64,000 nucleotides of DNA from an uncultured Bacilli bacterium (GTDB taxonomy: Bacteria; Bacillota_I; Bacilli_A; RF39; UBA660), in NCBI GenBank assembly GCA_934102055.1, contig CAKOSE010000001.1, positions 53,740 through 117,739 on the forward strand, read 5' to 3'. The translations under genes and the position numbers were made by a program. The notes under the pieces are model-generated. The model was not told where the DNA came from. It saw only the letters and a list, made by a program, of their open reading frames with translations, and searched no databases. How positions within the stretch are numbered: the stretch's first letter is position 1; the number at the start of each line of letters is the position of its first letter. Positions 6,637 through 29,136 of this stretch are shown piece after piece.

Positions 6637-6661
6637 GTGGTGTTAAATATTGTCATAAATA

Positions 6662-6690
6662 TTGACAAAGATTGCTAAAAATGATAGAAT
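6662..6690 (+). promoter_or_regulatory. Sigma-A-like promoter (TTGACA-17-TAGAAT) preceded by a tandem TAAATATTGWCA repeat
   Basis: ttgaca at 6662-6667, a 17-nt spacer, tagaat at 6685-6690. 'taaatattgtca taaatattgaca' is a direct tandem at 6644-6667. Confidence 0.5.
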
Positions 6691-8621: not shown

Positions 8622-8622
8622 T

Positions 8623-9417
8623 ATGGAAACGAAAGACATAGAAAGAAGTATTATAAAGACATATAAATCGAAAATATATGGAAAGTTTCTAAAAGCTGTA
8701 AAGGAGTATAATCTTGTTCAAAATAATGATAAAATAGCAATATGTATATCTGGGGGAAAGGATTCATTTCTTTTGGCAAAGTGTATGCAAGAGCTTAAAA
8801 AACATAGTAAATATAAAATAGATTTAGAATTTATAATAATGGATCCTGGTTATAGAACTGAAAATTTAAATTTAATAAAAGAAAATTTGAAGAAACTAGG
8901 GATAGATGCCACAATATATAAAAGTAATATATTCAATGAGATTAAAGATACAACTTCACCTTGTTATTTGTGTGCTAGAAAAAGAAGAGGTTTTTTGTAC
9001 GCTAAAGCGAAGGAACTTGGATGTAATAAAATAGCATTAGGACATCATTTTGACGATGTGATTGAAACTATATTGTTAAATATAATTTATGCTGGAGAAT
9101 ATAAAACTATGATGCCTAAACTTAAAAGTATAAATTTTGAGAATATGGAATTAATAAGACCTCTTTATTTTATAAAGGAAAAAGATATAGTATCATGGAA
9201 ACATCATTGTAACTTAGATTTCTTAGATTGTGCGTGTGGTGTTACAAAATCTAAGTTAGGGAAAAGAAGAGAAGTAAAAGAACTTATAGAATCGTTAAGA
9301 AAGATAGATAAAAACATAGATATACATATCTTTAAAAGTAGTGAGAATATAAATATAGATGCAGTACTGGGATATAAAACAAAGAATAAGAAAGTATCAT
9401 TTTTGGATGAATATTAG
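8623..9417 (+). CDS. PP-loop ATPase, TtcA-like tRNA thiolation protein
   Basis: SGGKDS PP-loop; CYLCARKRRG and C..C Cys pairs. The start is 1 nt after the hisS stop. Confidence 0.6.
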   Translation: METKDIERSIIKTYKSKIYGKFLKAVKEYNLVQNNDKIAICISGGKDSFLLAKCMQELKKHSKYKIDLEFIIMDPGYRTENLNLIKENLKKLGIDATIYKSNIFNEIKDTTSPCYLCARKRRGFLYAKAKELGCNKIALGHHFDDVIETILLNIIYAGEYKTMMPKLKSINFENMELIRPLYFIKEKDIVSWKHHCNLDFLDCACGVTKSKLGKRREVKELIESLRKIDKNIDIHIFKSSENINIDAVLGYKTKNKKVSFLDEY

Positions 9418-9468
9418 TTTAAAAAAATTTATTTTTCCACTTAAATCTAGCTATATAATATGAAAAAC

Positions 9469-9507
9469 GAATAAATGTTTGACAAATACTAAAATTTATG
9501 TTATAAT
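9469..9507 (+). promoter_or_regulatory. Consensus sigma-A promoter (TTGACA-17-TATAAT) with a LexA-box-like palindrome overlapping the -35
   Basis: gaataaatgtttgaca; ttgaca at 9479-9484, tataat at 9502-9507. The palindrome GAAT-N4-GTTT resembles the Cheo-type GAAC-N4-GTTC box. Confidence 0.45.
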
Positions 9508-9558
9508 TTAGACACTTAATTAAAGATTACCAAAATAGTATAAGGGGGCTAGGTAATT

Positions 9559-9987
9559 ATGGAAAGTAGAATAAATTATCATTTTGAATATGTAAATGAA
9601 AATGAGTTTAGGAAGAAAGAAAGATCAGTTAGAAAATATAATATGCTTGCTTATAAAAAGCTTACTTTTGAGTATTATCCAAGTATAAGAGAAGGGAAGT
9701 TCTTAGGAAAGTTAGTTTCTACTGATAAGAAGGAAAATACTATGACTTATGAACTTAAACTTCCTACTGATCATTTGTTTGCGAAAGTTCATGGAGATGT
9801 TACATTACATTACACAGTTTATATGGAGTCTAAAATTATACTTCTTACTAATATTACACCCGATTCTATTTTAGAAGAAGGACATAGAAGTGAACTTAGT
9901 ACATATAAAGGTGTTATGATATCTAAAACAAATAAAGAAAAAGATATGTTTAAAGTTAATTTACTTAATGCTTTAAATAAGAAATAA
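9559..9987 (+). CDS. Hypothetical protein, candidate SOS-regulated
   Basis: Good RBS (aagggggct). Downstream of the consensus promoter with the LexA-like box. Confidence 0.4.
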   Translation: MESRINYHFEYVNENEFRKKERSVRKYNMLAYKKLTFEYYPSIREGKFLGKLVSTDKKENTMTYELKLPTDHLFAKVHGDVTLHYTVYMESKIILLTNITPDSILEEGHRSELSTYKGVMISKTNKEKDMFKVNLLNALNKK

Positions 9988-10019
9988 AAAACTTCAGAAA
10001 TCAAATCTGAAGTTTTTAT
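9986..10019. terminator. Bidirectional rho-independent terminator
   Basis: Stem acttcaga/tctgaagt flanked by an A-run and a T-run. Lies between convergent genes (9559 gene and lexA). Confidence 0.65.
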
Positions 10020-10633
10020 ATTTTACGATAAAGTCCAACGACCTTTCCTAATATGGTTGCATTTTTTAAAATAATTGGTTCTAAATAATCATTTTCTGGT
10101 TGTAATCTAATATGATCTTTTTCCTTATAGAACGTTTTAACAGTTACTTCGTTATTATCATTCATTGCTACAACTATTTCTCCATTGCTAGCATTTTTAG
10201 CTCTTTCCACTAGTATTATATCATTGTCATGAATACCAACATTGATCATGCTATCTCCCGAAACTTTAAGGGAAAATGTTTCTTTTCTAGGGTTAAGTAA
10301 ACTAGTAGGAACATCAAAAAAATCATCTGGTCTTTCAATAGCTTCGATTGGACTACCTGCAGTAACTTTTCCTAGTAGAGGAATAGAAACAACAGTATCG
10401 GTTTTTCTATCGTATTCATTAGGAACTAAAAGTTCAATAGCTCTGTTTTTTTCTTTAGTTTTTTTTATGTATCCTTTTTCTTCTAAATGATCTAAGTGAA
10501 CATGAATAGTGGCAGTACTAGTTAAATTAGTTGTGGCACATAATTCCCTTACAGTAGGGGGAAAACCATTTTTTGCAATGTATTTTTTGATTTCTCTTAG
10601 GACTTTAGCTTGTCTAGTAGTTAATTTTTCCAT
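10016..10633 (-). CDS. lexA: LexA repressor
   Basis: N-terminal wHTH (TVRELCATTNLTSTATIHVHL). Ser/Lys peptidase C-terminal domain (GDSM...VVAMNDNNEVTVK). The ATG at 10633 has a GGAGG RBS; the annotated longer start at 10648 overlaps that RBS. Confidence 0.9.
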   Translation of the reverse strand: MEKLTTRQAKVLREIKKYIAKNGFPPTVRELCATTNLTSTATIHVHLDHLEEKGYIKKTKEKNRAIELLVPNEYDRKTDTVVSIPLLGKVTAGSPIEAIERPDDFFDVPTSLLNPRKETFSLKVSGDSMINVGIHDNDIILVERAKNASNGEIVVAMNDNNEVTVKTFYKEKDHIRLQPENDYLEPIILKNATILGKVVGLYRKI

Positions 10634-10676
10634 AGATATTACCTCCATATACAGAGTATCATATAACTTGATATTT

Positions 10677-10694
10677 TGTCAAACAAATGTTTTA
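10677..10694 (-). promoter_or_regulatory. Putative LexA operator overlapping the lexA -35 (autoregulation)
   Basis: Read 5'->3' on the minus strand: AAAACATTTGTTTGACA, i.e. AAAC-N4-GTTT fused to TTGACA. Same architecture as at 9469-9484. Confidence 0.4.
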
Positions 10695-10704
10695 GTTTTT
10701 ATAT

Positions 10705-10875
10705 TTTTACTTTACAAAAGTATATATTTGTATTAGAATATAATTGTATTTATTTGATGCGAAGATAAGGCTTGGAAACCTTTAGCATTGTTTTAAAAGA
10801 GATTCTAAATGAATAATTAGAGTGGAACCGCGGTTTTTAAATCGTCTCTAAGTATTTTTTAGAATTTTTATTTTA
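10705..10875 (+). promoter_or_regulatory. T-box leader (tRNA-Gly-sensing riboswitch) upstream of glyQS
   Basis: Conserved T-box sequence aattagagtggaaccgcgg at 10814-10832, followed by a T-run. Promoter-like tttaca-17-tagaat at 10709-10737. Candidate GGC specifier in 'aaggcttgg'. Confidence 0.65.
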
Positions 10876-10882
10876 TAAAGGA

Positions 10883-12250
10883 GTGATAAATATGAATATG
10901 GAAACTGTAGTAAATTTTTGCAAGACTTATGGATTTATTTTTCCTGGGAGTGAAATTTATGGTGGTCTTGCTAATACTTGGGATTATGGCCCACTTGGTT
11001 CAAGGCTTAAGAATAATGTAAAAGATGCATGGAGAAAAAGATTTATTCAAGAACGTTTTAATGCATATGAAGTGGATGCTGATATTTTAATGCATCCAAG
11101 AGTGTGGGAAGCGTCTGGGCATGTTGATAGTTTTTCTGATCCTTTAATAGATTGCAAAGAATGTAAAATGAGAGTAAGAGCAGATAACTTAGTAAATGAT
11201 TTTCTAGGAAATTCTAAGGGTGATGCGATGAATCATGAGGAACTTATTTCTTTTATAAAAGAAAATAAGGTTTCATGTCCTAAATGTGGTAAATGTAATT
11301 TTACAGATGTTCGTGAATTTAACCTTATGTTTGAGACAAAAAGGGGAGTTACGAATGATAAAAAAAGTACTATTTATTTAAGACCTGAAAATGCTCAAGG
11401 GGAATATGTTAATTTTTTAAATGTTCAAAGAACAATGAGATGTAAATTACCATTTTCAATAGGACAAATTGGAAAAGCTTTTAGAAATGAAATAACTCCT
11501 GGGAACTTTACTTTTAGAACTATTGAATTTGAACAAATGGAGTATCAAACTTTTTGTAAAGAGGGAAATGATTCAGAAATTTATAATTATTTTAAAAAAT
11601 ATGCTCTTGATTTTTATAAAGATTTGGGTATTAAAGAAGAAAACTTAAGATATCATGATCATGAAAAACTGGCTCATTATGCAAAAGAAGCGTGTGATAT
11701 TGAATATAAATTTCCATTTGGTTGGGGTGAGATCAACGGAACACATAATAGAACGAATTTTGATTTAAAAAGACATATGGAATATAGTGGTGTTTCTCAA
11801 GAGTATCTTGATCCTGAAACAAATGAAAAGTACATACCTTATGTGATAGAATCAACATGTGGTCTTGATAGAACGGTATTAGCACTTATATTTGATGACT
11901 TATGTGAGGAACAATTAGAAAATGATACAAGACTGGTATTAAAGCTTCATCCTTTTTTAGCACCTTATAAGGTATCGGTACTACCTCTTGTGAAAAAATA
12001 TCATAGTGAAAAAGCAAAGGAAATCTATGCAAAATTAAATAAATATTTTATGACAAGTTATGATGAGGCTGGATCGATAGGTAAAAGATATAGGAGAAAT
12101 GATGCAGCAGGAACAGTATTTTCTTTAACAGTAGATGATAATACATTAGAAAATAATACTGTTACATTAAGAGATAGGGATACTATGAAACAAGTAACAT
12201 TAAGTTTAGAGGAAGTAGTGCCATATATAGAAGAAAGAATAAAGTTTTAA
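10883..12250 (+). CDS. glyQS: Glycine--tRNA ligase (dimeric GlyQS type)
   Basis: YGFIFPGSEIYGGLANTWDYGPLG N-terminus. Class II motifs. 455 aa. Confidence 0.9.
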   Translation: MINMNMETVVNFCKTYGFIFPGSEIYGGLANTWDYGPLGSRLKNNVKDAWRKRFIQERFNAYEVDADILMHPRVWEASGHVDSFSDPLIDCKECKMRVRADNLVNDFLGNSKGDAMNHEELISFIKENKVSCPKCGKCNFTDVREFNLMFETKRGVTNDKKSTIYLRPENAQGEYVNFLNVQRTMRCKLPFSIGQIGKAFRNEITPGNFTFRTIEFEQMEYQTFCKEGNDSEIYNYFKKYALDFYKDLGIKEENLRYHDHEKLAHYAKEACDIEYKFPFGWGEINGTHNRTNFDLKRHMEYSGVSQEYLDPETNEKYIPYVIESTCGLDRTVLALIFDDLCEEQLENDTRLVLKLHPFLAPYKVSVLPLVKKYHSEKAKEIYAKLNKYFMTSYDEAGSIGKRYRRNDAAGTVFSLTVDDNTLENNTVTLRDRDTMKQVTLSLEEVVPYIEERIKF

Positions 12251-12264
12251 TTCTTTCTTTTTTC
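12231..12264 (+). terminator. Rho-independent terminator of glyQS
   Basis: 10-bp stem aagaaagaat/attctttctt, then TTTTT. Overlaps the stop codon. Confidence 0.6.
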
Positions 12265-12310
12265 GACAAAATAACTGATTTAAGTTTTATATACTGATAA
12301 TGGTGATAAG

Positions 12311-18995: not shown

Positions 18996-21068
18996 ATGAA
19001 ACATGAGCATAATTTGGCTATAAGAGAGGATAGAAACAAGAAAATGAAAAAACATACAAAGGAAAAAAAGAAAAAAGTCATTGCTATATTAATTATAATT
19101 GTTTTAATCTCTTTAGCAATAGGTATCTCTTATTCAGCATGGAGATATGTTTTTACAGGGAAAGAAAATAAAATAACAACTGGAGATGTTTCAATAAAGT
19201 TTTTAGAAAGTAATACTAATGTAATTAATTTAGCAAATGCTCTTCCAGAAGATGATAATACAGGAAAAAAAGAAAAATCATTTGATTTTGTTGTTACTAC
19301 AAAAGCAACATATAAAACAGCATTAAAATATGATTTAAGTATTAAAAAATTAAGTACAGATACTGGATATACAAGTTTAAATAACAATCAAATTAAAGTT
19401 TATTTAACAGATTCTAGTAATAATGTTTTAGTGGAACCTACTTTAATAAGTAATTTAAGTGATAATTTATTATATAGTAAAACTAATAAACATAGTAGCA
19501 CTAATACTGAAGTAAATGATAAGTACAAACTAAGAGTATGGATAGATAAAAATGTTGATGCTTCAGCCTGGACTAAAGATACAAAGAATCAATATAAGTT
19601 TAAGATAGGTCTTAAGAGTGAGGAAGTAGAAATTGCATCAGGTCCTAACGAACCTGTCTTAGATGATGGAATGATACCAGTATATTATGATGAAAGCAGT
19701 TCATCTTGGAAAAAAGCAGATAGTTCTAATTCAAACAATAATTGGTATGATTATGATTCTAAAAAATGGGCTAATAGTGTAACAGTATCAAGTACTAATA
19801 GAAGTGCTTATAAAAGTGCAAGTGTAGGAACAGAAATACCAATGGATGATATTCTAACAATGCAAGTATGGATTCCGAGATATAAATATAAAGTATGGAA
19901 TTATAATGCGGATGGTACAAAAACAAGTAATCCTCAACCAATAGAAATAACATGGGAGAAAGGAACATCAAAAACAGGAGAAATAACATGTACTGATAAT
20001 ATTCAAGGTTCAAGTGGAGATGGAACAAGTGAAACTTGTAAAATAGATAATAAGGTATGTACAAATTCGACTTGTAATGGAAAAACATATACTCATCCAG
20101 CATTTACTTTCGGAAGTGAGGAAATAAAAGGATTTTGGATTGGAAAGTTTGAAGCGAGTGCAACAACTTCTTTAGATTTAACAACTATTTCTTATAAAGA
20201 GAAAAACAAAAATGAAAATGTAACACTCAATGACATTGCATATTATAGCGATGATAATGAAGATATAATAGTAAAAAAGTTGGCTCCATCAGATGCGATT
20301 TGTACCGTCCTATATAATGAAACTAATCTATATCCTTGCCCCTCTACGTTGTTTGCATTAACTAAGCCCAATATTCACAGCTGGACATATGGGACAGTAA
20401 AGCTTTATGAAGATAGTATAATGAATATGAAAAACAGTAGTAGTGGCTATGGATTAAGTACATCAACAGATACACATATGATAAAGAATAGTGAGTGGGG
20501 AGCAGTAGCATATTTATCTCATTCAAAATATGGAACATGTACAAATGGTACTTGTAAAGAAATAGGAATAAATAATAATTCTAATTATACGGGATGCGGT
20601 GCCACAGCAGGAAGTTCTGCAAGCTCAACATGTAATGCTTATAATACAACGACTGGAATGCTAGCATCAACTACACAAAATATATATGGAGTATACGACA
20701 TGAGTGGAGGAGCATTTGAATATACAATGTCTAACATAGTAAATACTGATGAATCAACAATGATACCAAGAGATTCTGGTTATACAACTACAACATATCC
20801 AGATGCTAAATATTATGATAAATATAGTTACAGTACAAGCGTTACATCAAGAAAAAGAAGTAAACTAGGAGATGGGATAAAGGAAGTATATAAAAGTAGT
20901 GATAATTGTTGGTATAGCGATTTTTCTTACCTTGCGAACTCTAGTTTTCCTTACCTCCATCGTGGGGGCCACGCAGGCAATGGTTTGCCTGCTGGAGTCT
21001 TTGACTCGAACTACGAAAGTGGTTCTTTCGCTTTGGACAAAACCTCTCGTCTCATAATAACACCGTAA
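18996..21068 (+). CDS. Membrane-anchored extracellular protein with a possible C-terminal FGE/SUMF1-like domain. The 3' end is compositionally foreign.
   Basis: N-terminal basic stretch plus a single TM (VIAILIIIVLISLAIGI). C-terminal motifs EWGAVAYL, GVYDMSGGAFEY and HRGG weakly recall the FGE-sulfatase fold. Confidence 0.45.
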   Translation: MKHEHNLAIREDRNKKMKKHTKEKKKKVIAILIIIVLISLAIGISYSAWRYVFTGKENKITTGDVSIKFLESNTNVINLANALPEDDNTGKKEKSFDFVVTTKATYKTALKYDLSIKKLSTDTGYTSLNNNQIKVYLTDSSNNVLVEPTLISNLSDNLLYSKTNKHSSTNTEVNDKYKLRVWIDKNVDASAWTKDTKNQYKFKIGLKSEEVEIASGPNEPVLDDGMIPVYYDESSSSWKKADSSNSNNNWYDYDSKKWANSVTVSSTNRSAYKSASVGTEIPMDDILTMQVWIPRYKYKVWNYNADGTKTSNPQPIEITWEKGTSKTGEITCTDNIQGSSGDGTSETCKIDNKVCTNSTCNGKTYTHPAFTFGSEEIKGFWIGKFEASATTSLDLTTISYKEKNKNENVTLNDIAYYSDDNEDIIVKKLAPSDAICTVLYNETNLYPCPSTLFALTKPNIHSWTYGTVKLYEDSIMNMKNSSSGYGLSTSTDTHMIKNSEWGAVAYLSHSKYGTCTNGTCKEIGINNNSNYTGCGATAGSSASSTCNAYNTTTGMLASTTQNIYGVYDMSGGAFEYTMSNIVNTDESTMIPRDSGYTTTTYPDAKYYDKYSYSTSVTSRKRSKLGDGIKEVYKSSDNCWYSDFSYLANSSFPYLHRGGHAGNGLPAGVFDSNYESGSFALDKTSRLIITP

Positions 21069-21071
21069 ATT

Positions 21072-21116
21072 AAAAAGACAAATTCTTAGTTTTTAAGTTT
21101 TTTGTCTTTTTTATTT
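21072..21116. terminator. Terminator-like hairpin between convergent genes
   Basis: aaaagacaaa ... tttgtctttt (10-bp stem, long loop), then a T-run. Confidence 0.4.
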
Positions 21117-21463
21117 ATTCCTATCATTGCTCCTATACAGGAAGTGGTTACTATTATTAGATAGTATAATAAACTGGAAATGGTTATGGTTTTATCGAAT
21201 GCTAGGAATGCTATTATATAGAATAGTGCAATTATTAGGACTGAGTATTTTAATCCTTCTATATATCCTTTTTTTTCTGTTTTTTTTCCTAGTAGATATG
21301 ATCCTATTAAGATAGATAGTGCTGTTACTAGTATTAGTATTGTTTTATATATATTTTTTGGGATTAGATCGTAATAATTAAAAATATTAATTATGAAGCT
21401 TAGTATTAGAATTGTTCCTAGTGTTATTCCTGTACTTATAGAATAGTTTTTTATTTGTTTCAC
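21086..21463 (-). CDS. Hypothetical 4-TM membrane protein
   Basis: 125 aa and hydrophobic. Lies between the 690-aa gene and the Tad locus on the opposite strand. Confidence 0.4.
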   Translation of the reverse strand: MKQIKNYSISTGITLGTILILSFIINIFNYYDLIPKNIYKTILILVTALSILIGSYLLGKKTEKKGYIEGLKYSVLIIALFYIIAFLAFDKTITISSLLYYLIIVTTSCIGAMIGINKKDKKLKN

Positions 21464-21560
21464 TTTATCACCTAGTAATTTATATGTAAATAGGATAAAT
21501 AATAGTAATATTGAATTGACTTTTTTCGCTATTTTTTATAAAATTAATATAGGAAAATAG

Positions 21561-21782
21561 GTGAGGAGAATGAAACGAATTAATGATAAGGGTCAAACTC
21601 TTGTTGAATATGTTTTGATAATAGCTCTTATTAGTGTCATTGCTATTTCTTTGGTAACTCTTTTAGGAGGTTATTTAAAGGACTCTATAACTAAGTCTTC
21701 TTGTGAACTTGTTGGAGAAGTCTATGTTAAGGGGGATAAGTCTGGGGAAGGATATTGTGCTGATCCAAATGAAAAGAAATAG
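21561..21782 (+). CDS. flp: Flp-family type IVb prepilin
   Basis: Basic leader, then G/QTLVEYVLIIALISVIAIS (Flp G|XXXXEY processing motif). Confidence 0.65.
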   Translation: MRRMKRINDKGQTLVEYVLIIALISVIAISLVTLLGGYLKDSITKSSCELVGEVYVKGDKSGEGYCADPNEKK

Positions 21783-22113
21783 TAAGGGACAAGCTCTTGT
21801 TGAATTTGTTATTATTTTGCCGATTATTTTAATGATTCTTTTCATAATCATTGATTTTTCTAATATTTTTTATCAGAAAAATCATTTGGAGAGTACTTTG
21901 AATGATGTTGTGGAATACAAGGAAAATGGAAAATCTAATTCTTATATAAAAGATAAGGTGAATGATTCAAGTATTTCTATATCGTATAAAAAGATTGATG
22001 ATAGTTTAGATATTAAAATAACAAAAAAGGTTAATTTGATAACGCCTTTCTCATCACTTTTCTTTGATAATCCTTTTGTTATAAAGACTGAAAGGATGAT
22101 TCTTTATGAATAA
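21769..22113 (+). CDS. TadE/TadG-like pseudopilin
   Basis: NSKGQALVEFVIILPIILMILFIIID N-terminus (TadE-like domain). ATG at 21769 (MKRNSKGQ). Confidence 0.55.
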   Translation: MKRNSKGQALVEFVIILPIILMILFIIIDFSNIFYQKNHLESTLNDVVEYKENGKSNSYIKDKVNDSSISISYKKIDDSLDIKITKKVNLITPFSSLFFDNPFVIKTERMILYE

Positions 22114-22471
22114 TAAAGGTCAAACACTTGTTTTCTTTGTGGTGTTAATACCTCTTATACTTGCTCTTTTCGCTTTTGTGATTGATTCTGCGTATATAGT
22201 AAGAGGTAATACTAAACTTTATGGAATTGCTTATTCTGCTCTTGATGATGTTGTAAATCAGGGTAAGGATATAAAAAAAGTAAAACGAGTAATAAAAGAA
22301 AATGATAATAATATAAAAATAATTGTTTTGGATAGAAATGGTATTGAACTTACTAATGAAATTACTCCTATATTTGGAAAAATTATTGGTTATGATAAAT
22401 ATAATCTTGATGTTAAACTTTATACTTCTTATGAGAATGGTAAGTATATGATAAAGGAAAAGGGGAAATAA
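22106..22471 (+). CDS. TadE/TadG-like pseudopilin (second copy)
   Basis: MNNKGQTLVFFVVLIPLILALFAFVIDSAYI. Confidence 0.55.
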   Translation: MNNKGQTLVFFVVLIPLILALFAFVIDSAYIVRGNTKLYGIAYSALDDVVNQGKDIKKVKRVIKENDNNIKIIVLDRNGIELTNEITPIFGKIIGYDKYNLDVKLYTSYENGKYMIKEKGK

Positions 22472-22473
22472 TT

Positions 22474-23244
22474 ATGAAAGCAACGAAAGGAAAGATAATT
22501 ACTATAACTTCTACTAAGGGTGGAGTAGGTAAAACTATAGCACTTTTAAATTTAGCGGGTACTTATGAAAAACTTGGATATAAAACTTTGGTGATTGACT
22601 TAGATCTATATGGTGGGGCAATAGCGACTTATCTTAATTCTAATAATGATAAAACAATATTTAATCTGGTGGAGGATTTAACTAATAATAGATATAATAC
22701 AATTGATGAGTATTTGTTTTCTTATAGTGATAAAATAGATATAATAGCCGCTCCTAAGGATCCGAGAATGGCTAGTAAAATAGATTCTAAATACATTCCG
22801 CTTATTCTTAGAAATGTTATATATAAATATGATGTTATTTTGATAGATACGACTCATAATTTAAATGAGGTAAATATAGTTACCCTTGATAATAGTGATA
22901 GTATTTTATATATGTTTACAAATGATACGTTTGATCTTAAGAATACGAAGTCTTTTATATCGATAATGAAGGATATAGGTAATGATAATTATTATACTAT
23001 TTTAAATGAATCTGTTCATCCTGGAAGAAGTAATTATTCTCTTTTTGATATAAGAAATATTATTAAAAGTAATGTGGATTTTACTATTTCGAAAAGCATG
23101 TATATAAGAAATATTGATAAATTTATCTTGGATGGAAAAATACTTATTTTTAACAAGGGACTTTCTTTTACAGATAAGCGTGAATGGGAAAAGTTAAAAG
23201 TAATTGCCAATACACTTATAAAGGATAAGAAGGGGGTAAAATAA
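22474..23244 (+). CDS. CpaE/TadZ-like ParA/MinD-family ATPase
   Basis: Deviant Walker A ITSTKGGVGKT. Located in the Tad locus. Confidence 0.65.
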   Translation: MKATKGKIITITSTKGGVGKTIALLNLAGTYEKLGYKTLVIDLDLYGGAIATYLNSNNDKTIFNLVEDLTNNRYNTIDEYLFSYSDKIDIIAAPKDPRMASKIDSKYIPLILRNVIYKYDVILIDTTHNLNEVNIVTLDNSDSILYMFTNDTFDLKNTKSFISIMKDIGNDNYYTILNESVHPGRSNYSLFDIRNIIKSNVDFTISKSMYIRNIDKFILDGKILIFNKGLSFTDKREWEKLKVIANTLIKDKKGVK

Positions 23245-24582
23245 ATGAAGAAAACACTTTCTGAGGCTTTTGAGTTAAATGAAAAAACTGTTTCTTTTAA
23301 AGAAATGCAAGCTGATGACTATGAAATATTTGAAGATAAGATTCTTCTTGATACTTTAAGAAATAAAGTTATTCAAAATATTATAGATAATGATGTTCCT
23401 GATAATGAGTTTTTAACTGAATATATAAATAATGAGATAGATGAAGCTCTAGAGGGGTATGATTTGTCAAATTTAGAAAGAAATCATATTTTTAACTTGA
23501 TAGAGAATGAAATACATGGATATGGACCGATAACGGAGTTATTAGATGATCCTAATATAACTGAAATTATGGTAAATGGACCAGATAAAATTTATATTGA
23601 AATTGATGGTAAAGTTGTAAGGGATGATTCGGTTTCTTTTATAAATGATGAGCATATTGTGAGAACAATTCAAAGAATGATACAACCTCTTGGAAGAACA
23701 ATTGATGTTGCAAATCCAATGGTTGATTCAAGACTTAAAGATGGTTCGAGAATAAATGCGGTAATTCCTCCTCTTTCTTTAAATGGACCTGTTTTGACTA
23801 TAAGAAAATTTAAAAAGAATCTAGAGACTATGGAAGATCTTTTGAGAATGGGTACTTTAACTACGTATATGGCTAGATTTTTAGATGCTTCTGTTAAGGG
23901 AAAACTTAATATACTTATATGTGGAGGAACTGGTTCTGGAAAGACAACGGTTTTGAATGTTCTTTCGTCTCTTATTAGTAATGATGAGCGTATTATAACG
24001 ATTGAAGATGCTGCGGAACTTAAATTAAAACAGGAACATGTTATTACGCTTGAGACAAGAAATATGAATTATGAAAAAGAGGGAGAAGTAACTATAAGAG
24101 ATTTGGTTATAAATTCTTTACGTATGAGGCCTGATAGAATAATAGTTGGAGAAGTACGTGGTAAAGAGGCATTTGATATGTTACAAGCTATGAATACTGG
24201 GCATGAGGGAAGTTTATCTACACTTCATGCGAATGGGCCAAAAGATGCTCTTAATAGACTTGAAACAATGGTTTTGATGAGTGGTATTCAAATACCTGTA
24301 ACTGCAATAAGAGAATATATAGAAAAAGCAATAGATTTAGTTGTGTATATAGAAAGACTTCAAGATGGAAAAAGAAAAATAGTTTCAATAAGTGAAGTAT
24401 ATAATATGAAAGATGGGGAAATTAATTTAAAAGAAATATTTAGTTTTAAGCAAAAAGGCTTAACAAAAAGTGGAGAGGTTAATGGTTCTTATATAATGTA
24501 TAAATATATGCCTAAAGTTTATAATAAGATAAAATCAAAGGGTATAGATGAAATAGATGATATATTTGAGAAGATAAAATAG
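23245..24582 (+). CDS. tadA: CpaF/TadA type II/IV secretion ATPase
   Basis: Walker [10 protein letters not shown], Asp box, Walker [11 protein letters not shown], His box LSTLHANG. Confidence 0.85.
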
Positions 24583-24598
24583 AAAGGGATGGAGTAAT

Positions 24599-25603
24599 AT
24601 GGGGAATTCTATTATATTTACTATAATACAATTTTTACTTATAATTGGACTTATTGTAGTAGCGTGTTATCTTATAAAATTTAAAAATGCTCTAGCACTT
24701 GAGAAAAGGGTAACTAGGTTCTCCATAGAATCTATTACTGATAAACCATTATCATTTTTTGATAAATTGAATAATAAATATAATAATATTATAAATAGGA
24801 TTACAAAATCACTATCAAAATCAAAGCTTTTTATATCTTATAGTAAGCGTTATGATAAGTATTTAGATAAAACTAAAATAATAAGATATAAGGCTATAGA
24901 TATAGTATCAAATAAAATATTTGTGAGTTTGGTAGCACTTATAATAACAGTTATATCTGATGTTTTGAGGGGAAAATCTTTTAGTATAATGCAAATAATA
25001 ATTTCTTTATTAGTAGGTTTTTATATACCGGATATATTTTTATTAATTAATGAAAAGAAAAGAAAAAAACGAATAGAAGATGATTTATTTAAAGCTGTTT
25101 TGATTATGAGTAATGCTTTTAAATCTGGAAGAAGTATTATGCAGGCTGTAGAAATTGTTTCAAATGAATTAGATGGGCCGATAAGTGAAGAATTTAAAAA
25201 AATGTATATTGATTTAACATATGGACTAGAACTTGATGTTGTTTTTGATAGGCTTTCAAATAGAATAAAATTAGATGAAACAAAGTATATGGCTTCTTCT
25301 TTAGTTATATTAAATAAAACAGGGGGTAACATAGTGAAGGTGTTTTCTTCGATTGAAAGAAGTTTTTTTGAAAGAAAGCAGCTAAATGATGAATTAAAAT
25401 CAGTAACAGCGTTGTCAAATTTTGTGTTTAAAATTTTAGTGGCTATACCATTTATAATATTTATCATGATTTATATACTAAATCCAGGTTATTTTGTTCC
25501 TCTTGTAACTACTATAATAGGAAAGATATTACTTATCATAATACTTTTAATTTATGTGCTTTATATAGTTATAGTAAGAAAACTAATAAGAATAAAGGAT
25601 TGA
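24599..25603 (+). CDS. tadB: TadB (GspF-like platform protein)
   Basis: Membrane protein with T2SSF-type domain (LSNAFKSGRSIMQAVEIV). Confidence 0.65.
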   Translation: MGNSIIFTIIQFLLIIGLIVVACYLIKFKNALALEKRVTRFSIESITDKPLSFFDKLNNKYNNIINRITKSLSKSKLFISYSKRYDKYLDKTKIIRYKAIDIVSNKIFVSLVALIITVISDVLRGKSFSIMQIIISLLVGFYIPDIFLLINEKKRKKRIEDDLFKAVLIMSNAFKSGRSIMQAVEIVSNELDGPISEEFKKMYIDLTYGLELDVVFDRLSNRIKLDETKYMASSLVILNKTGGNIVKVFSSIERSFFERKQLNDELKSVTALSNFVFKILVAIPFIIFIMIYILNPGYFVPLVTTIIGKILLIIILLIYVLYIVIVRKLIRIKD

Positions 25604-25607
25604 TATT

Positions 25608-26306
25608 ATGAAAAATAAAAAAAGTTTAAGTTATAGAATATATAGTAAAAAAAATTTAAAAATGGCTGAGGAAAAGACAAGTCTTTTAGGAGTTAATAAT
25701 AAACTTGATGCGGTAGGATTACTTAATACAAGACTTTTTATAAGTATCCTTATTTTTATAGTGATACTTTATTTTATAGATTTTGGTTATTTTATAGCAC
25801 CGATAGTAACATTTTTGGTATACCAGCTTTTCTTTCCTGTTCTAATAGATAGTAAGATAGAAAAAAGAAAGAAAGTGTTAGAAAAAGATTCTTTATATTT
25901 TTTTGAGATATTAGTGCTTTCTTTGGAAGCTGGTAGAAATATAAAATGTGCTATTGAAGTTACTACTAATAATATTGAATCTGAATTATCGGATGAATTT
26001 AAGAAAGTAATAAAAGATGTTAATTATGGAAAAGACTTAGATGAAGCTTTGGAAGAGTTAAAATATAGAATTCCTTCAGATACTGTAAATAATATAATAC
26101 TTAATATAAGACAATCAAATATGTTTGGTAATAATATAATAGATACAGTTTATTCACAAATAAATTATATAAGAGGAAAAAAACTTTTAGAAACAAAAGC
26201 TTATATAAGTAAAATTCCGATTAAAATAAGCGTTGTAAGTGTAGTGTTTTTTATACCTTTATTACTTTTGTTACTTCTTGGACCAATGTTAATTAGTTTG
26301 ATTTAG
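25608..26306 (+). CDS. tadC: TadC (GspF-like platform protein)
   Basis: Paralog of the previous gene (EILVLSLEAGRNIKCAIEV). C-terminal TM. Confidence 0.6.
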   Translation: MKNKKSLSYRIYSKKNLKMAEEKTSLLGVNNKLDAVGLLNTRLFISILIFIVILYFIDFGYFIAPIVTFLVYQLFFPVLIDSKIEKRKKVLEKDSLYFFEILVLSLEAGRNIKCAIEVTTNNIESELSDEFKKVIKDVNYGKDLDEALEELKYRIPSDTVNNIILNIRQSNMFGNNIIDTVYSQINYIRGKKLLETKAYISKIPIKISVVSVVFFIPLLLLLLLGPMLISLI

Positions 26307-26334
26307 AAATATCTTTTGATGTTTCTTTTTTTTG
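26305..26334 (+). terminator. Terminator after the Tad operon
   Basis: agaaatat/atgtttct stem (1 mismatch), then a T8 run. Confidence 0.45.
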
Positions 26335-26510
26335 TGTATTTTTTTAAAATTTATATACTTTGTAATATTTGGGATATAATTAGTTTTTAAAATAAATATT
26401 TCCTATATATGAATTTTTTGTTTTTGGATTAGTTCTATAAGCAAATGTGAAAATTGGTCATTTGCACTATGCTTTTAAATCATTTATAGTGTATTGCGGG
26501 AGGAATATTT

Positions 26511-28577
26511 ATGAGAAAAATTAGATGTTTGTTTATAGGAATTTTATTTATGTTTTTTGCTTTTATAGGAGTAGTTAATGCAAGTAATTACACTGGTAAA
26601 CTTTATGAGGTATATCATCCTAATTCGGGATTTACAGTCTTTGCAGAAGAAAAATACAGAAATATGGACTATAATAGTTGGATGATAAAATCAACAGTAG
26701 ATAATAGGATATATTATTGTATTGATCCTACTATTCCTTTGGAAGGATCATTTGAGGGTTCACATAAGTATATAATTGGAGAAAATAACATAAAAAAGGA
26801 AATTAATATAACAAGTGAACAGTATAAGAAAATAAATCTTTTAGCATTTTATGGTTATAAATATAATGATCGAAAGTATAATCATTCAGATAAAAAATGG
26901 TATGGGATAACTCAGGTAATGATATGGAGAGTGATGAGACCTGATCTTACTTGGACATTTAAAGAAAGTAGAGATGCTAAACCCGATAAAAGTTTATATA
27001 AGGATGAGATAAAGGAATTAAATTATTTAGTATCAAAGCATGATACATTACCAAGTTTTGTAGATCAAAAAACAAAAGATAAGGATATTAGGTTGTTATT
27101 AAATGACGAGATTACTTTAAAGGATACAAATGATACTTTGTATAGGTATTATTTAGTGTCAAGCTTGTTTAAAAAAATAAAGCTAACAAGAAGTGATTCA
27201 AGTGTTATATTAAAAGGGATAAAACAAGGCAGAGAGCAAGTTAATTTTAGTACATCAAGCTATACGGGGGATTTATTTGCTTTTCTAACAAGTAGTAATT
27301 ATCAAGATGTAGTAATTGCTGGGTATGATGGACTTCCTCATTTTAGTTTATTTGTAGATGTAGTTGGAGGAACTCTTAATATTCGTAAATTTGATAAAGA
27401 AACAAATGCAAGTCAAGGGGAAGCGACTTTGAAAGGGGCAAAGTATGAAATATATGACAAAGATAATAAGTTTGTTAAACTAGTTGAAACTGATGAAGAT
27501 GGAAAGGGCCAAACTATTTTGGATTATGGAGATTATATAATAAAAGAGAAAACCCCTCCACAGGGATATAAACTTGATCCTAATACTTATAATATCAGTA
27601 TAAGTAAGGAAAACAATGAAATTAATTTGGATGTAAAAGATGAAGTAATAAAAGGAAGAATAATAATTAAGAAAATGAAAGGAGGTTCTAAAGAAAAGTA
27701 TATAGCTGAAGAAAATGCTGTATTTGAAATATATGATGTTAATAATAAATTAGTAGATACTATAACTACTGATAAAGATGGTCTAGCACACTTAACGTTA
27801 CCATATGGTAAATACAAAGTAAAACAAATAAAAGGTGCAGATGGTTATGTTATAAGTGATGATTATGAGATTAATATTAAGCAGGAGAAGGATTATCAAC
27901 TAAATATTAAGAATAAAAAGTTATCTATAATTGAAATAACAAAACTCGATGAAGAGACTAATGAACCTATTAAGGATACATTTTTTGAAATTTATAATGG
28001 TAAAGAAAAAATATTTGAAGGAAAAACAGATGATAAGGGGAAACTTAAAATAGAAAATGTTAAGATAGGAACATACATTTTAAAAGAAGTAAAACCAAAT
28101 AAATATTATAGAAGTAATGATGAAGAGAAAGAGTTTTTAATAAGCGAAAATGGAACATATCTTGAGTTAAAAGTAAAAAATACTAGAAAAAGAGGTAATG
28201 TTACATTTTATAAAATAGATAGCTTATCTGGAAAAAAATTAGAGAATGCAAGTATAAGATTAGAAGATGATATATTAAAGAAAACTGTTTTTAAAGGTAA
28301 AACTGATAAAGATGGAAAAATATATATAAAGGATTTGGTGGCAGGAAATTATTGTTTTTATGAGGAAAAAGCTCCTTTTGGATATAAAAAAGATGAGAAA
28401 CCAAAGTGTTTTGAACTTTCAAAGGATAATGAGAATATAAATATTAGTATGGTTAATGAAAGATTAATAAGTGTTCCTAATACTTTTAAGAATGATAGTA
28501 AAGTATATGTGATTATTGGTATATTTATAGTTGTTGTAAGTTTAAGTTATATTGTTTATGTTAAACAGAATAAATAA
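26511..28577 (+). CDS. Sortase-anchored adhesin: N-terminal thioester-like domain plus 4 CnaB/SpaA-type (prealbumin-fold) repeats
   Basis: Signal peptide. YYCIDP Cys and ITQVMIW Gln-motif (TQxxIW) typical of internal-thioester domains. Four repeats ending ...KDG....L.YG.Y...E.KAP.GY. C-terminal sorting-signal architecture (VPNTF + TM + KQNK). Confidence 0.6.
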   Translation: MRKIRCLFIGILFMFFAFIGVVNASNYTGKLYEVYHPNSGFTVFAEEKYRNMDYNSWMIKSTVDNRIYYCIDPTIPLEGSFEGSHKYIIGENNIKKEINITSEQYKKINLLAFYGYKYNDRKYNHSDKKWYGITQVMIWRVMRPDLTWTFKESRDAKPDKSLYKDEIKELNYLVSKHDTLPSFVDQKTKDKDIRLLLNDEITLKDTNDTLYRYYLVSSLFKKIKLTRSDSSVILKGIKQGREQVNFSTSSYTGDLFAFLTSSNYQDVVIAGYDGLPHFSLFVDVVGGTLNIRKFDKETNASQGEATLKGAKYEIYDKDNKFVKLVETDEDGKGQTILDYGDYIIKEKTPPQGYKLDPNTYNISISKENNEINLDVKDEVIKGRIIIKKMKGGSKEKYIAEENAVFEIYDVNNKLVDTITTDKDGLAHLTLPYGKYKVKQIKGADGYVISDDYEINIKQEKDYQLNIKNKKLSIIEITKLDEETNEPIKDTFFEIYNGKEKIFEGKTDDKGKLKIENVKIGTYILKEVKPNKYYRSNDEEKEFLISENGTYLELKVKNTRKRGNVTFYKIDSLSGKKLENASIRLEDDILKKTVFKGKTDKDGKIYIKDLVAGNYCFYEEKAPFGYKKDEKPKCFELSKDNENINISMVNERLISVPNTFKNDSKVYVIIGIFIVVVSLSYIVYVKQNK

Positions 28578-29136
28578 AACCTGTGTTTTGTTATTGTTAC
28601 TTTCTTTGATAATTTTGATAGTGTGTTGTTTAAATAGTTCTTTATTTAATGCTATAACAGAAACTAAGAAAATAAATAGTTTTATAGATAATGATTATAT
28701 AATTGTTGATTCTAAAAAGAAAACACAAAGAGGAGGATTTGTTGCTTTGCTTGATGTGCCTAAGATTTCTTTGAAGAAAGGCATTTATCAATTAAATGAT
28801 AAGCATAACTCGGTATCTTATGGAATTGAAATGTTAAGTGGTTCTAGTTTCCCAGATAGGGATAATAGTACTCTTATTCTTGCTTCCCATAGTGGTAATT
28901 CAAGTGTATCTTATTTTAGAAACTTAATTTATTTGGAGAAAGGGGATATTGTGTATTTGTATTATAATGGCAATAAATATATGTATGAAATAATAGGTTG
29001 TTATAAAAAAAAGAAAGATGGATATATTTTGGTGAAAGACTTTGGGAAAGGTAGATTTATGATTTTAACAACATGTAAGAATGATGAACTTGATAAACAA
29101 TTAACTTGTTATGGAAGATTAAATGGAAAAATTTAA
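28552..29136 (+). CDS. Sortase
   Basis: N-terminal TM. Catalytic His (LASHSGNS), LTTC Cys motif and a downstream Arg. 194 aa. Confidence 0.75.
   Translation: MFMLNRINKTCVLLLLLSLIILIVCCLNSSLFNAITETKKINSFIDNDYIIVDSKKKTQRGGFVALLDVPKISLKKGIYQLNDKHNSVSYGIEMLSGSSFPDRDNSTLILASHSGNSSVSYFRNLIYLEKGDIVYLYYNGNKYMYEIIGCYKKKKDGYILVKDFGKGRFMILTTCKNDELDKQLTCYGRLNGKI

What the first reader, a model, noticed from the sequence alone, without database searches (positions are those of the whole stretch)
20921..21068. GC-rich, hairpin-dense 3' end embedded in the 690-aa ORF
The last ~45 codons of the 18996-21068 ORF switch abruptly from typical AT-rich codons to GC-ending codons (gcg, ctc, cgt, ggg, ggc, cac, gtc, gac, tcg, ttc, acc, ccg). 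Local GC is about 50% against about 27% around it. The stretch contains a perfect 8-bp inverted repeat (GCAGGCAA-tggt-TTGCCTGC at 20973-20992) and a 6-bp one (CGAAAG-tggtt-CTTTCG at 21014-21030). It sits immediately upstream of a terminator-like hairpin at 21072-21116. Such a nucleotide-level anomaly is not explained by amino-acid composition. It suggests a recombination junction, for example where the adjacent Tad/adhesin island joined, or a structured RNA or DNA element that is read through as coding sequence.
Basis: seen in the sequence. Interest (0 to 1): 0.6.

Follow-up and report, generated by a model that had tools for sequence, protein, structure and literature searches.

The report
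Fossil DGR variable region in surface-protein gene
The GC-rich last 45 codons of this gut-bacterial surface-protein gene are the footprint of a diversity-generating retroelement, a known system that rewrites a gene's ligand-binding tip by error-prone reverse transcription. In this copy the rewriting appears to have stopped.

Summary
Window 20921-21068 has GC 0.47-0.53 against 0.27 for the window, A falls from 42% to 21%, and GC3 rises from about 0.13 to 0.45. GC is 0.479 against 0.366 expected from the peptide itself (z 6.2). Both inverted repeats and the downstream terminator hairpin exist.

The cause is neither a structured RNA nor foreign DNA. The stretch is homologous to the template/variable repeat of a diversity-generating retroelement (DGR). 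A profile built only from six template repeats (TRs) of related uncultured gut Bacilli hits the window once, at 20918-21052 (E 2.4e-11). A relative (L011) has the full cassette: target, MutS-like ORF, TR, Avd and RT. Across 53 homologous tails, variability sits at adenine-containing TR codons (2.74 vs 0.82 bits) and uses the NNY residue set.

This copy looks orphaned:
- The 64 kb hold no TR or RT.
- Homology to canonical targets stops at the stop codon, so the recognition hairpin is lost.
- Seven strain variants share almost the same tail.
- Non-adenine positions have drifted as much as the gene body.

The hairpins are idiosyncratic and are shortened or weakened in the nearest strain. This is a known kind of element, of modest interest.

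The parts
18996..21068 (+). Gene for a 690-aa member of a multi-paralogue family of DGR target (variable) proteins in uncultured gut Bacilli. It has an N-terminal membrane anchor, a beta-rich middle part, and a C-terminal FGE-sulfatase/C-type-lectin-like domain.
   Evidence: ORF. 3,319 homologues at E<=1e-3. Four or more paralogues per genome. Weak FGE-sulfatase match at aa 536-582 (E 0.013), also seen in 26 of 53 family members with best E 1.5e-4, all below Pfam's cut-off. The only PDB profile hit is 5VF4, the Thermus aquaticus DGR variable protein, at E 0.27.
19059..19145 (+). N-terminal basic stretch plus hydrophobic helix (about aa 22-50; KKKKVIAILIIIVLISLAIGISYSAW). It is a membrane anchor or uncleaved signal, which would place the rest of the protein outside the cell.
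   Evidence: Read directly from the translation. AlphaFold2 models helix 22-50. Topology is inferred and was not tested with a dedicated predictor.
20918..21052 (+). Variable-region (VR) homologue: DNA homologous to DGR template repeats. This stretch is the GC-rich, A-poor anomaly.
   Evidence: nhmmer with a profile of six TRs hits only here in the 64 kb, at E 2.4e-11. Codon-register alignment with VRs and TRs. About 58-62% of TR adenines are changed.
20973..20992 (+). Perfect 8-bp inverted repeat GCAGGCAA-tggt-TTGCCTGC. It is built from hypervariable codons 19-20 and 23-24 of the VR and is idiosyncratic.
   Evidence: Sequence. The stem is reduced from 8 to 6 bp in strain L025 by 20986 T>C. 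It is absent from all paralogue VRs.
21014..21030 (+). 6-bp inverted repeat CGAAAG-tggtt-CTTTCG inside the VR. It is idiosyncratic.
   Evidence: Sequence. L025 carries 21016 A>C in its 5' arm. The terminator scan picks an overlapping stem at 21008-21025. It is not conserved in paralogues.
21043..21068 (+). 3' boundary of the VR (IMH-like CTCTCGTCTC) plus the coding 5' arm (TAACACC, 21058-21064) of the hairpin that straddles the stop codon in canonical targets. The stop codon is 21066-21068. The 3' arm (GGTGTTA) is missing, and homology to canonical target loci ends at 21068.
   Evidence: blastn against the L011 locus matches only 21043-21068. Hairpin survey. DNA folds.
21066..21117 (.). AT-rich terminator-type hairpin between the convergent target gene and the DUF3792 gene. 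It is unrelated to the conserved 3' flank of canonical targets.
   Evidence: DNA fold -11.4 kcal/mol, z -4.97. Convergent ORF 21086-21463 (-) matches DUF3792 at E 6e-14.

Best explanation
Window 20918-21052 is the variable region (VR) of a diversity-generating retroelement (DGR) target gene, or the recent fossil of one.

In this family of surface proteins from uncultured gut Bacilli, a DGR cassette (MutS-like ORF, template repeat TR, Avd, reverse transcriptase) copies the TR into cDNA. Adenines are misread at random during copying. The cDNA then replaces the last ~45 codons of the target gene, which form the ligand-binding face of a C-type-lectin/FGE-like domain.

Two consequences explain the anomaly. 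Non-adenine positions are repeatedly reset to the relatively GC-rich TR sequence, so they escape the genome's AT drift. Adenine positions are scrambled, so A is depleted. Both raise GC and GC3 independently of the encoded residues.

This particular copy most likely is no longer rewritten. It is a paralogue whose similarity to canonical targets ends at the stop codon, so it lacks the downstream recognition hairpin. Since then it has evolved by ordinary point substitution. The internal hairpins are by-products of the scrambled sequence.

Shown: homology to TR/VR, the family-wide adenine-specific pattern, absence of TR and RT in the 64 kb, loss of the flank, and strain-level invariance. Inferred: that the tail was once written by a DGR, and that it is now inactive.

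Sub-probabilities: DGR-VR origin about 0.9. Currently inactive, given that origin, about 0.65-0.7.
For: 1. DNA homology to templates. The TR-only profile hits 20918-21052 at E 2.4e-11 and nowhere else in the window.

2. A complete DGR in a relative. L011 has a target with its VR at 11311-11449, an MSL ORF, the TR at 12170-12308, bAvd (E 1e-9) and an RVT_1 reverse transcriptase (E 1.6e-20). In fixed register, 17 of 21 TR/VR mismatches are at TR adenines: 42% of A positions changed against 4% of non-A positions. The same cassette occurs in L031-L038 and L137.

3. Family-wide pattern in 53 unique tails. Entropy is 2.74 bits at TR codons with A in position 1 or 2, against 0.82 bits elsewhere (p 5e-7). 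At AAY positions only 2.1% of residues are K/E/Q/M/W, against 19.4% in protein bodies.

4. The GC-rich, A-poor signature is shared by VRs of the family (GC 0.44-0.57). It fades in decayed paralogue tails (GC 0.31-0.42).

5. An active contrast. L028 and L029 are 99.5% identical in the 217 nt before the VR but only 77% identical inside it, and 23 of their 30 VR differences are at TR adenines (p 8e-9).

6. Evidence that this copy is frozen:
- No RT motif.
- No TR by blastn or by an adenine-tolerant scan, whose best candidate has 25 non-A mismatches while the L011 control recovers its TR with 3.
- Seven orthologue sequences vary at 2 of 50 tail columns against 20 of 640 body columns.
- Window and L025 differ at 3 of 148 nt in the tail against 55 of 2,473 nt overall, and only one of the three is at a TR adenine.
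- 13 violations of the 55 TR columns that are invariant non-A, against 0 for the L011 VR and 5-6 for L026/L028/L029.
- Non-A divergence of 16 of 85 (18.8%), similar to the 13-14% divergence of the adjacent gene body from the paralogues.
- Scaffold changes W12Y, F13L, Y19A and S42T, and the NNY-inaccessible residues E and K at AAY sites.
- The stop-straddling hairpin TAACACC-gtaa-GGTGTTA and the conserved 165-nt 3' flank are absent. In the Bordetella phage BPP-1 DGR such a hairpin/cruciform is required for efficient retrohoming (PMC3240598).
Against: - No cognate TR was found for this tail. All seven TRs examined (six in fixed register, plus L031 by local alignment) differ from it at 23-32 non-A positions, so adenine-specificity could not be shown for the window itself.
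- Only 64 kb of a 155-kb contig was visible, and the rest of the genome was not, so a distant DGR cannot be excluded. Remote targets more than 100 kb from the RT are documented (PMC5758913).
- The tail's GC (0.47) and A (0.21) are as extreme as in active VRs. Either inactivation is recent or the tail is still occasionally rewritten.
- Tails are also invariant within most 90% clusters of apparently canonical paralogues, so strain-level invariance is weak evidence of inactivity.
- Some DGR-adjacent VRs (L031, L035) showed no hairpin in my narrow search zone, so absence of the hairpin is not decisive.
- The C-type-lectin fold is not demonstrated. Pfam matches are below the cut-off, and the AlphaFold2 model is unusable for residues 378-690 (pLDDT < 50).
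Confidence: 0.85

Rival explanations
1. The tail is a still-active remote target of a DGR located outside the 64-kb window, with a lineage-specific TR. On this view the deviations from other TRs reflect divergence of that TR rather than decay of the VR.
For: - Remote targets more than 100 kb from the RT are known for non-phage DGRs (PMC5758913).
- L028 and L029 are diversified in an adenine-specific way although no cassette is adjacent to them, so trans action happens in this family.
- TRs of the family differ from each other at 20 or more positions. Several of the window's odd bases (GCTGGAGTCTTT, TCTCGTCTC, AGT...) occur in TR_L036.
- The tail's composition is as extreme as in active VRs.
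Against: - The recognition hairpin and the conserved 3' flank are missing.
- Seven orthologue sequences share almost the same tail, and their few differences are not adenine-specific.
- The tail has changes at TGG (Trp) and other columns that are invariant in all six TRs and nearly all VRs. It also has E and K at AAY sites.
- Non-A divergence matches that of the neighbouring gene body.
Confidence: 0.27
2. The stretch is a recombination or horizontal-transfer junction: GC-rich foreign DNA fused to the gene when the neighbouring Tad/adhesin island was inserted.
For: The compositional switch is abrupt. Homology to paralogue loci breaks at 21068.
Against: - The GC-rich stretch is in frame and in register with the tails of the whole family, which sit in many different genomic contexts without Tad genes.
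- The compositional switch starts at the TR/VR boundary, not at the gene or island boundary.
- The breakpoint lies after the GC-rich stretch, at its 3' end, so it does not explain the composition.
Confidence: 0.03
3. The stretch is a functional structured RNA or DNA element embedded in the coding sequence, such as a regulatory hairpin cluster or a 3' stability or attenuation element.
For: The window tail folds better than all 200 shuffles (z -3.35). It contains a perfect 8-bp GC-rich stem, for which I estimate a chance expectation of roughly 0.01-0.02 per 148 nt. This is my own calculation and was not run with a tool.
Against: - No Rfam match.
- The four paralogue tails do not fold better than shuffles (z -0.08 to -1.47).
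- The stems are made of hypervariable codons.
- Two of the three substitutions in the closest strain fall in these stems without compensation. They shorten the 8-bp stem to 6 bp, although L025 still folds at z -2.6.
- The feature was selected after the fact from 64 kb.
Confidence: 0.04

Closest known systems
DGR variable regions of C-type-lectin-fold target proteins (Bordetella phage BPP-1 Mtd, Treponema denticola TvpA and its seven remote targets, Thermus aquaticus TaqVP / PDB 5VF4)
   Same: - A VR of about 135 nt forms the last ~45 codons of the target gene.
- The scaffold ...WF.RGG...AG.F...G...R is kept.
- Variability is confined to codons that are AAY in the TR, and those positions use the NNY residue repertoire.
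- A hairpin lies just downstream of the VR in canonical family members.
- Several dispersed target paralogues occur per genome.
- The only PDB profile hit is TaqVP.
   Different: - In the window copy no TR or RT lies within 64 kb.
- The downstream hairpin is lost and the tail has non-adenine drift.
- The fold assignment rests on sub-threshold sequence matches only.
'Architecture D' DGR cassettes with MSL (MutS-like) plus Avd accessory genes (Wu et al. 2018, PMC5758913; the Legionella DGR is an example)
   Same: Relatives L011, L031-L038 and L137 carry, in order, target, a 136-aa MutS_I-domain ORF, TR, bAvd and RT. The paper describes MSL proteins of 112-283 aa that co-occur with avd.
   Different: The hosts are uncultured AT-rich gut Bacilli (relatives are labelled 'uncultured Bacilli bacterium' or Candidatus Onthousia). 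The cassette is not in the window itself.
DGR loci classed as 'inactive' in metagenome surveys (Roux et al. 2021, PMC8144416)
   Same: The VR shows no excess variation relative to surrounding sequence in population or strain comparisons.
   Different: In that survey the loci are DGRs with an identified RT and TR. Here the VR is an orphan paralogue that has lost the targeting flank. The family shows a graded series from active VRs to fully AT-normalised tails.

Membership tests
Diversity-generating retroelement (DGR) system | DGR-type reverse transcriptase encoded nearby or in the genome | tested here: not met
   No RT in the 64-kb window: the YxDD scan gave no credible motif, and the ORF map contains no candidate. 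The rest of the genome is not available. Relatives have an RVT_1 RT (E 1.6e-20) next to a paralogue.
Diversity-generating retroelement (DGR) system | A TR/VR repeat pair whose mismatches are almost all at TR adenines | tested here: not met
   No TR in the window. blastn finds nothing. The adenine-tolerant scan's best candidate has 25 non-A mismatches, while the L011 control recovers its TR with 3. Against the six heterologous TRs aligned in fixed register, the tail has 23-32 non-A mismatches. The feature is met in relative L011 (17 of 21 mismatches at A). Between L028 and L029, 23 of 30 differences are at TR adenines.
Diversity-generating retroelement (DGR) system | VR is DNA-homologous to a TR and lies at the 3' end of a protein-coding target | tested here: met
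   The TR-only nhmmer profile hits 20918-21052 at E 2.4e-11. That stretch is the last ~45 codons of ORF 18996-21068.
Diversity-generating retroelement (DGR) system | Hypervariability restricted to adenine-containing (AAY) template codons, with an NNY-type residue repertoire | tested here: met
   Family level: 2.74 against 0.82 bits, p 5e-7. K/E/Q/M/W make up 2.1% of residues at AAY positions against 19.4% in protein bodies. The window tail itself has 2 of 15 AAY positions occupied by E or K.
Diversity-generating retroelement (DGR) system | IMH and a hairpin/cruciform immediately downstream of the VR (target recognition; Guo et al. 2011) | tested here: not met
   Canonical family targets have TAACACC-gta(a)-GGTGTTA across the stop codon (L011, L026-L030, L038). 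The window keeps only the coding 5' arm (21058-21064), and homology ends at 21068.
Diversity-generating retroelement (DGR) system | Ongoing diversification: VR more variable than its flanks among close strains | tested here: not met
   The window's orthologue group (7 sequences) varies at 2 of 50 tail columns against 20 of 640 body columns. Window and L025 differ at 3 of 148 nt in the tail against 55 of 2,473 nt overall. Read-level data could not be examined.
DGR variable protein with C-type-lectin / FGE-sulfatase fold | C-terminal CLec/FGE-type domain whose last strands carry the VR | tested here: inconclusive
   Pfam FGE-sulfatase matches at E 0.013 (15.6 bits against a cut-off of 23.3). 26 of 53 family members match, best E 1.5e-4, all sub-threshold. 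The PDB profile search returns only TaqVP 5VF4 at E 0.27. The AlphaFold2 model has pLDDT < 50 for residues 378-690, so no fold search was run.
Rfam structured RNA families | Match to a covariance model, or a structure conserved in homologues | tested here: not met
   Best Rfam hits have E 4.6-6.6, far below gathering scores. The four paralogue tails fold at z -0.08 to -1.47, and the sister strain L025 at z -2.6 with a shortened stem.

The most novel reading that the evidence does not exclude
Paralogue duplication followed by loss of the targeting flank may be a recurrent way of banking DGR-evolved binding specificities. In that scheme one or a few paralogues stay under hypermutation. Copies whose homology ends at the stop codon, and so lack the hairpin, are frozen and then kept under purifying selection.

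This would fit two observations. Tails are more conserved than gene bodies within 90% clusters. Paralogues form a graded series from active VRs to fully decayed tails.

A more speculative variant is that the window tail's unusually stable internal hairpins (z -3.35) have taken on a function of their own, or substitute for the lost recognition hairpin.
Probability: 0.12. Interest if true: 0.55.

Novelty: new member of a known kind. Interest (0 to 1): 0.33.

Why it matters
DGRs are among the most powerful natural protein-diversification systems, and they are especially dense in gut bacteria. This locus adds an uncharacterised family of membrane-anchored target proteins in uncultured, AT-rich gut Bacilli.

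The family has many paralogues per genome. They span the range from actively rewritten copies to fossilised ones, which gives a natural series for studying how DGR targets are gained, frozen and lost.

There is also a practical point. In an AT-rich genome, a short GC-rich, A-poor, GC3-high stretch at the 3' end of a gene is a simple sequence-only flag for a current or recent DGR variable region. It works even when the RT and TR are far away or missing, a case that RT-anchored DGR finders would not report.

For a DGR specialist none of this is surprising.

Tried and rejected
- **Searching the window for a TR or RT.** I used blastn at word size 7, a YxDD motif scan, an adenine-tolerant scan and a TR profile. 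The only hit was the tail itself.

- **Finding the cognate TR elsewhere.** Seven TRs were recovered through RT homologues (L011, L031, L035, L036, L037, L038, L137), plus one distant TR in L009. None is cognate. These exact-pattern scans were run:
  - predicted template string TCTTACCTTGCGAACTCTAG in metagenome contigs: 0 hits;
  - TR flank ATATAGCTTTATAAATTGTTT in viral contigs: 0 hits;
  - CCWTGGTTCAAACGTGG in metagenome contigs (93 stretches) and viral contigs (5 stretches): mostly chance matches plus distant TRs, none close to the window tail;
  - two further lineage-specific strings in viral contigs: 0 hits.

- **Paralogy with the 688-aa ORF 26511-28577.** It is unrelated; it is a SpaA/TED pilin-type protein.

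- **Rfam scan of 20500-21600.** Nothing was found.

- **AlphaFold2 model of the full protein with 53 homologues.** The C-terminal domain has pLDDT < 50, so no fold search was attempted. The PDB sequence-profile search gave only a marginal hit to TaqVP.

- **Synteny search for an orthologue in the genome that carries the complete DGR (L011).** No syntenic locus was among the fetched loci. Only L005 shares LepA and HemW, and it is arranged differently.

- **Second GC-rich block, 6477-6685.** It is a trivial Gly-rich tail.
Full report
**1. The observation**

ORF 18996-21068 (690 aa) exists as described. In 100-nt windows GC rises to 0.48-0.53 at 20900-21049, against 0.2-0.39 in the rest of the gene and 0.268 for the whole window. 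The AT skew turns strongly negative at the same place. Adenine falls from 42.4% in the gene body to 20.9% in 20921-21068. GC3 rises from mostly 0-0.2 to 0.40-0.47.

Only 0.08% of all 148-nt segments of the window are as GC-rich (z 4.2). Re-encoding the same 48-residue peptide with the window's codon usage gives GC 0.366 +/- 0.018 against 0.479 observed (z 6.2, 0 of 5000 simulations). The only other GC-rich block (6477-6685) is a Gly-rich C-terminal tail that its residues explain completely.

The two inverted repeats are exact. The segment folds at z -3.35. The terminator-type hairpin at about 21066-21117 is real (z -4.97).

**2. What it is**

The window contains no second copy of the stretch and no reverse transcriptase. 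The protein has 3,319 homologues, nearly all from gut metagenomes. Their C-terminal tails share a fixed scaffold (SKLGDGIKEVY..GWY.D.S.LA.S..PWF.RGG....G..AGVF.S.....G......SSRLIITP). The positions in between are hypervariable and use mostly N, S, Y, D, G, F, H, A, I, V, R.

In GTDB genomes the family is multi-copy. One 706-kb contig of an uncultured Bacilli MAG holds four copies, and another MAG holds at least eight.

Next to one paralogue (L011) lies a non-genic, Asn-codon-rich copy of the tail, followed by two genes. This is a full DGR cassette:
- target gene 7763-11461, with its VR at 11311-11449;
- a 136-aa MutS_I-domain ORF;
- the TR at 12170-12308;
- bAvd (E 1e-9);
- an RVT_1 reverse transcriptase (E 1.6e-20).

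In fixed register, 17 of 21 TR/VR mismatches in L011 are at TR adenines: 42% of A positions changed against 4% of the others. The same cassette occurs in seven further contigs reached through RT homologues. It corresponds to the published MSL-containing 'architecture D' (PMC5758913).

A profile HMM built only from six TRs hits the window exactly once, at 20918-21052, with E 2.4e-11. Across 53 unique gapless tails, entropy is 2.74 bits at positions whose TR codon has A in position 1 or 2, against 0.82 bits elsewhere (p 5e-7). At AAY positions K/E/Q/M/W make up 2.1% of residues, against 19.4% in protein bodies. High GC (0.44-0.57) and low A (0.13-0.25) are general properties of VR tails in this family.

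The anomaly is therefore the compositional signature of a DGR variable region. Non-adenine positions are copied again and again from a relatively GC-rich template. Adenines are randomised.

**3. Is this copy still being rewritten?**

Several lines of evidence say probably not.

(a) No cognate TR exists in the 64 kb. The adenine-tolerant scan's best candidate has 25 non-A mismatches, which is background, while the L011 positive control recovers its TR with 3.

(b) None of the six TRs aligned in fixed register fits. About 58-62% of A positions are changed, but so are 26-36% of non-A positions. A seventh TR (L031) fitted no better by local alignment.

(c) At the 55 columns that are invariant non-A in all six TRs, the L011 VR has 0 violations. 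L026, L028 and L029 have 5-6, mostly shared, so these are markers of their own unseen template. The window has 13, of which 3 are shared markers and 10 are private. Against the template inferred from L026/L028/L029, its 17 non-A mismatches include 7 C>T changes, the direction expected from AT-biased drift.

(d) The window differs from its closest paralogues at 16 of 85 (18.8%) non-A tail columns. That is similar to the 13-14% divergence of the 416 nt just upstream. This is what ordinary substitution since the paralogues split would produce.

(e) Seven orthologue sequences from different samples vary at 2 of 50 tail columns against 20 of 640 body columns. At DNA level the window and strain L025 differ at 3 of 148 tail positions against 55 of 2,473 overall, and only one of the three is at a TR adenine.

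(f) The tail deviates at near-invariant scaffold residues (W12Y, F13L, Y19A, S42T). It also has E and K, which NNY codons cannot encode, at two AAY positions.

(g) Canonical targets carry a hairpin straddling the stop codon (TAACACC-gta(a)-GGTGTTA) and about 165 nt of conserved 3' flank. This holds at three unrelated genomic loci (L011, L026, L028/L029). In the window, homology ends exactly at the stop codon and only the coding 5' arm survives. In the Bordetella phage DGR such a hairpin/cruciform is required for efficient retrohoming (PMC3240598).

The paralogue at the MurB-FtsQ locus gives the opposite picture. L028 and L029 are 99.5% identical over the 217 nt before the VR and 77% identical inside it, and 23 of their 30 differences are at TR adenines (p 8e-9).

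Other paralogues (L001, L003, L004, L005, L014, L019, L022) have homologous tails with GC 0.31-0.42 and many E/K/Q/M/W/I residues. These look like older fossils. The window copy sits early in this decay series.

**4. Caveats**

- The rest of the 155-kb contig and of the genome was not visible, and remote DGR targets are documented.
- TRs of the family differ among themselves, and some of the window's odd bases occur in TR_L036. A lineage-specific TR therefore remains possible.
- Tails are also invariant within most 90% clusters of canonical paralogues, so strain invariance alone is weak evidence.
- Two DGR-adjacent VRs showed no hairpin within my narrow search zone.

I put the probability of DGR-VR origin at about 0.9. 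Given that origin, I put present inactivity at about 0.65-0.7.

**5. The hairpins**

The internal stems are built from hypervariable codons. They are absent from the paralogue VRs, which fold like shuffles (z -0.08 to -1.47). Two of the three substitutions in the nearest strain fall in the stems (20986 T>C, 21016 A>C). The first shortens the 8-bp stem to 6 bp, and L025 still folds at z -2.6. Rfam finds nothing. The stems are best read as accidents of a scrambled, GC-enriched sequence. The z-score of -3.35 remains a mild oddity.

**6. Comparison with known systems**

The element works like the VRs of Mtd, TvpA and TaqVP-type C-type-lectin-fold DGR targets, and the family's cassettes match the MSL+Avd architecture.

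Membership in a DGR system is met for three criteria: TR homology, position in the gene, and the family-wide adenine pattern. It is not met in the window for four: RT, TR, the hairpin, and ongoing diversification.

The fold criterion is inconclusive. Pfam FGE-sulfatase matches are sub-threshold in 26 of 53 members. The only PDB hit is TaqVP (5VF4) at E 0.27. The AlphaFold2 model is unusable for the C-terminal domain.

**7. Verdict**

This is a new member of a known kind: a DGR variable region, probably orphaned, in an uncharacterised target family of uncultured gut Bacilli. Its interpretation is only partly right. Interest is modest.

Noticed in passing
L011:11722-12132; also L031:8891-9301, L035:544-954, L036:120-530, L037:126-536, L038:466-879, L137:284-694: Every recovered DGR cassette of this family has a 136-137-aa MutS-domain-I ORF between the VR and the TR. 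This matches the 'MSL' accessory gene of Wu et al. 2018. Its role in retrohoming is unknown.
   Followed up: partly
L028:12094-12500 and L029:12082-12430, compared with L011:11461-13954: In L028 and L029 the conserved target 3' flank is joined directly to the PDDEXK_2 gene, which in L011 follows the RT. The 2.2-kb MSL-TR-Avd-RT cassette is precisely absent. Even so, the two strains' VRs differ in an adenine-specific way. Either a DGR acts in trans or the cassette was lost very recently.
   Followed up: partly
Protein clusters of P0044 and P0041: Within 90%-identity clusters the DGR-type tails are far more conserved than the protein bodies: 1 of 50 against 95 of 600 variable columns in one cluster, and 0 of 50 against 69 of 567 in the other. 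This is the reverse of what continuous hypermutation would give.
   Followed up: no
window 18996-19500 compared with L028:10001-10505: The first ~505 nt of the window gene are 97% identical to a paralogue at another locus, while the rest of the gene is 85-90% identical. This suggests mosaicism or gene conversion among paralogues.
   Followed up: no
window 19440-19587; L028/L029 about 11000-11450: Strain differences cluster inside the gene body, outside the VR. 18 of the 55 differences between the window and L025 fall in one 148-nt bin. L028 and L029 are about 19% divergent over 450 nt. This second variable segment is not DGR-type.
   Followed up: no
L011:12313-12326 and the equivalent position in L035, L036, L037, L038 and L137: A conserved palindrome (CTATATTAATATAG or a close variant) and conserved flank (...GCTTTATAAATTGTTT) lie immediately 3' of the TR. 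They may belong to the structured RNA needed for cDNA priming.
   Followed up: no
L011:11671-11692: A (GT)n microsatellite (tgtgtgtgtgtgtgtgtgtgtg) lies just upstream of the MSL gene of the DGR cassette. It could be a slippage-prone switch.
   Followed up: no
window 6477-6685: This is the only other GC-rich block in the window. It is the Gly-rich C-terminal tail (GGGGFSSGGGGFGSFGGGGFGGGGGR) of ORF 4942-6636, and its GC is fully explained by Gly codons.
   Followed up: yes
L005:90-3384: A contig labelled as a Lachnospiraceae bin encodes a LepA 95% identical to the window's, so the bin label is doubtful. It carries a family paralogue with a decayed tail upstream of LepA, whereas in the window the family gene lies downstream of HemW.
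   Followed up: partly
window 21561-29136: Directly downstream lie a Flp/Tad pilus gene set (Flp, TadE, ParA-like, T2SSE ATPase, two T2SSF), then a 688-aa SpaA/TED-type pilin and a sortase. This is a cluster of surface-adhesion functions next to the DGR-family surface protein.
   Followed up: no
window 19170-19630 (aa about 60-210): AlphaFold2 models this N-proximal part as a confident beta-sandwich (pLDDT 75-93). Its fold family was not identified.
   Followed up: no
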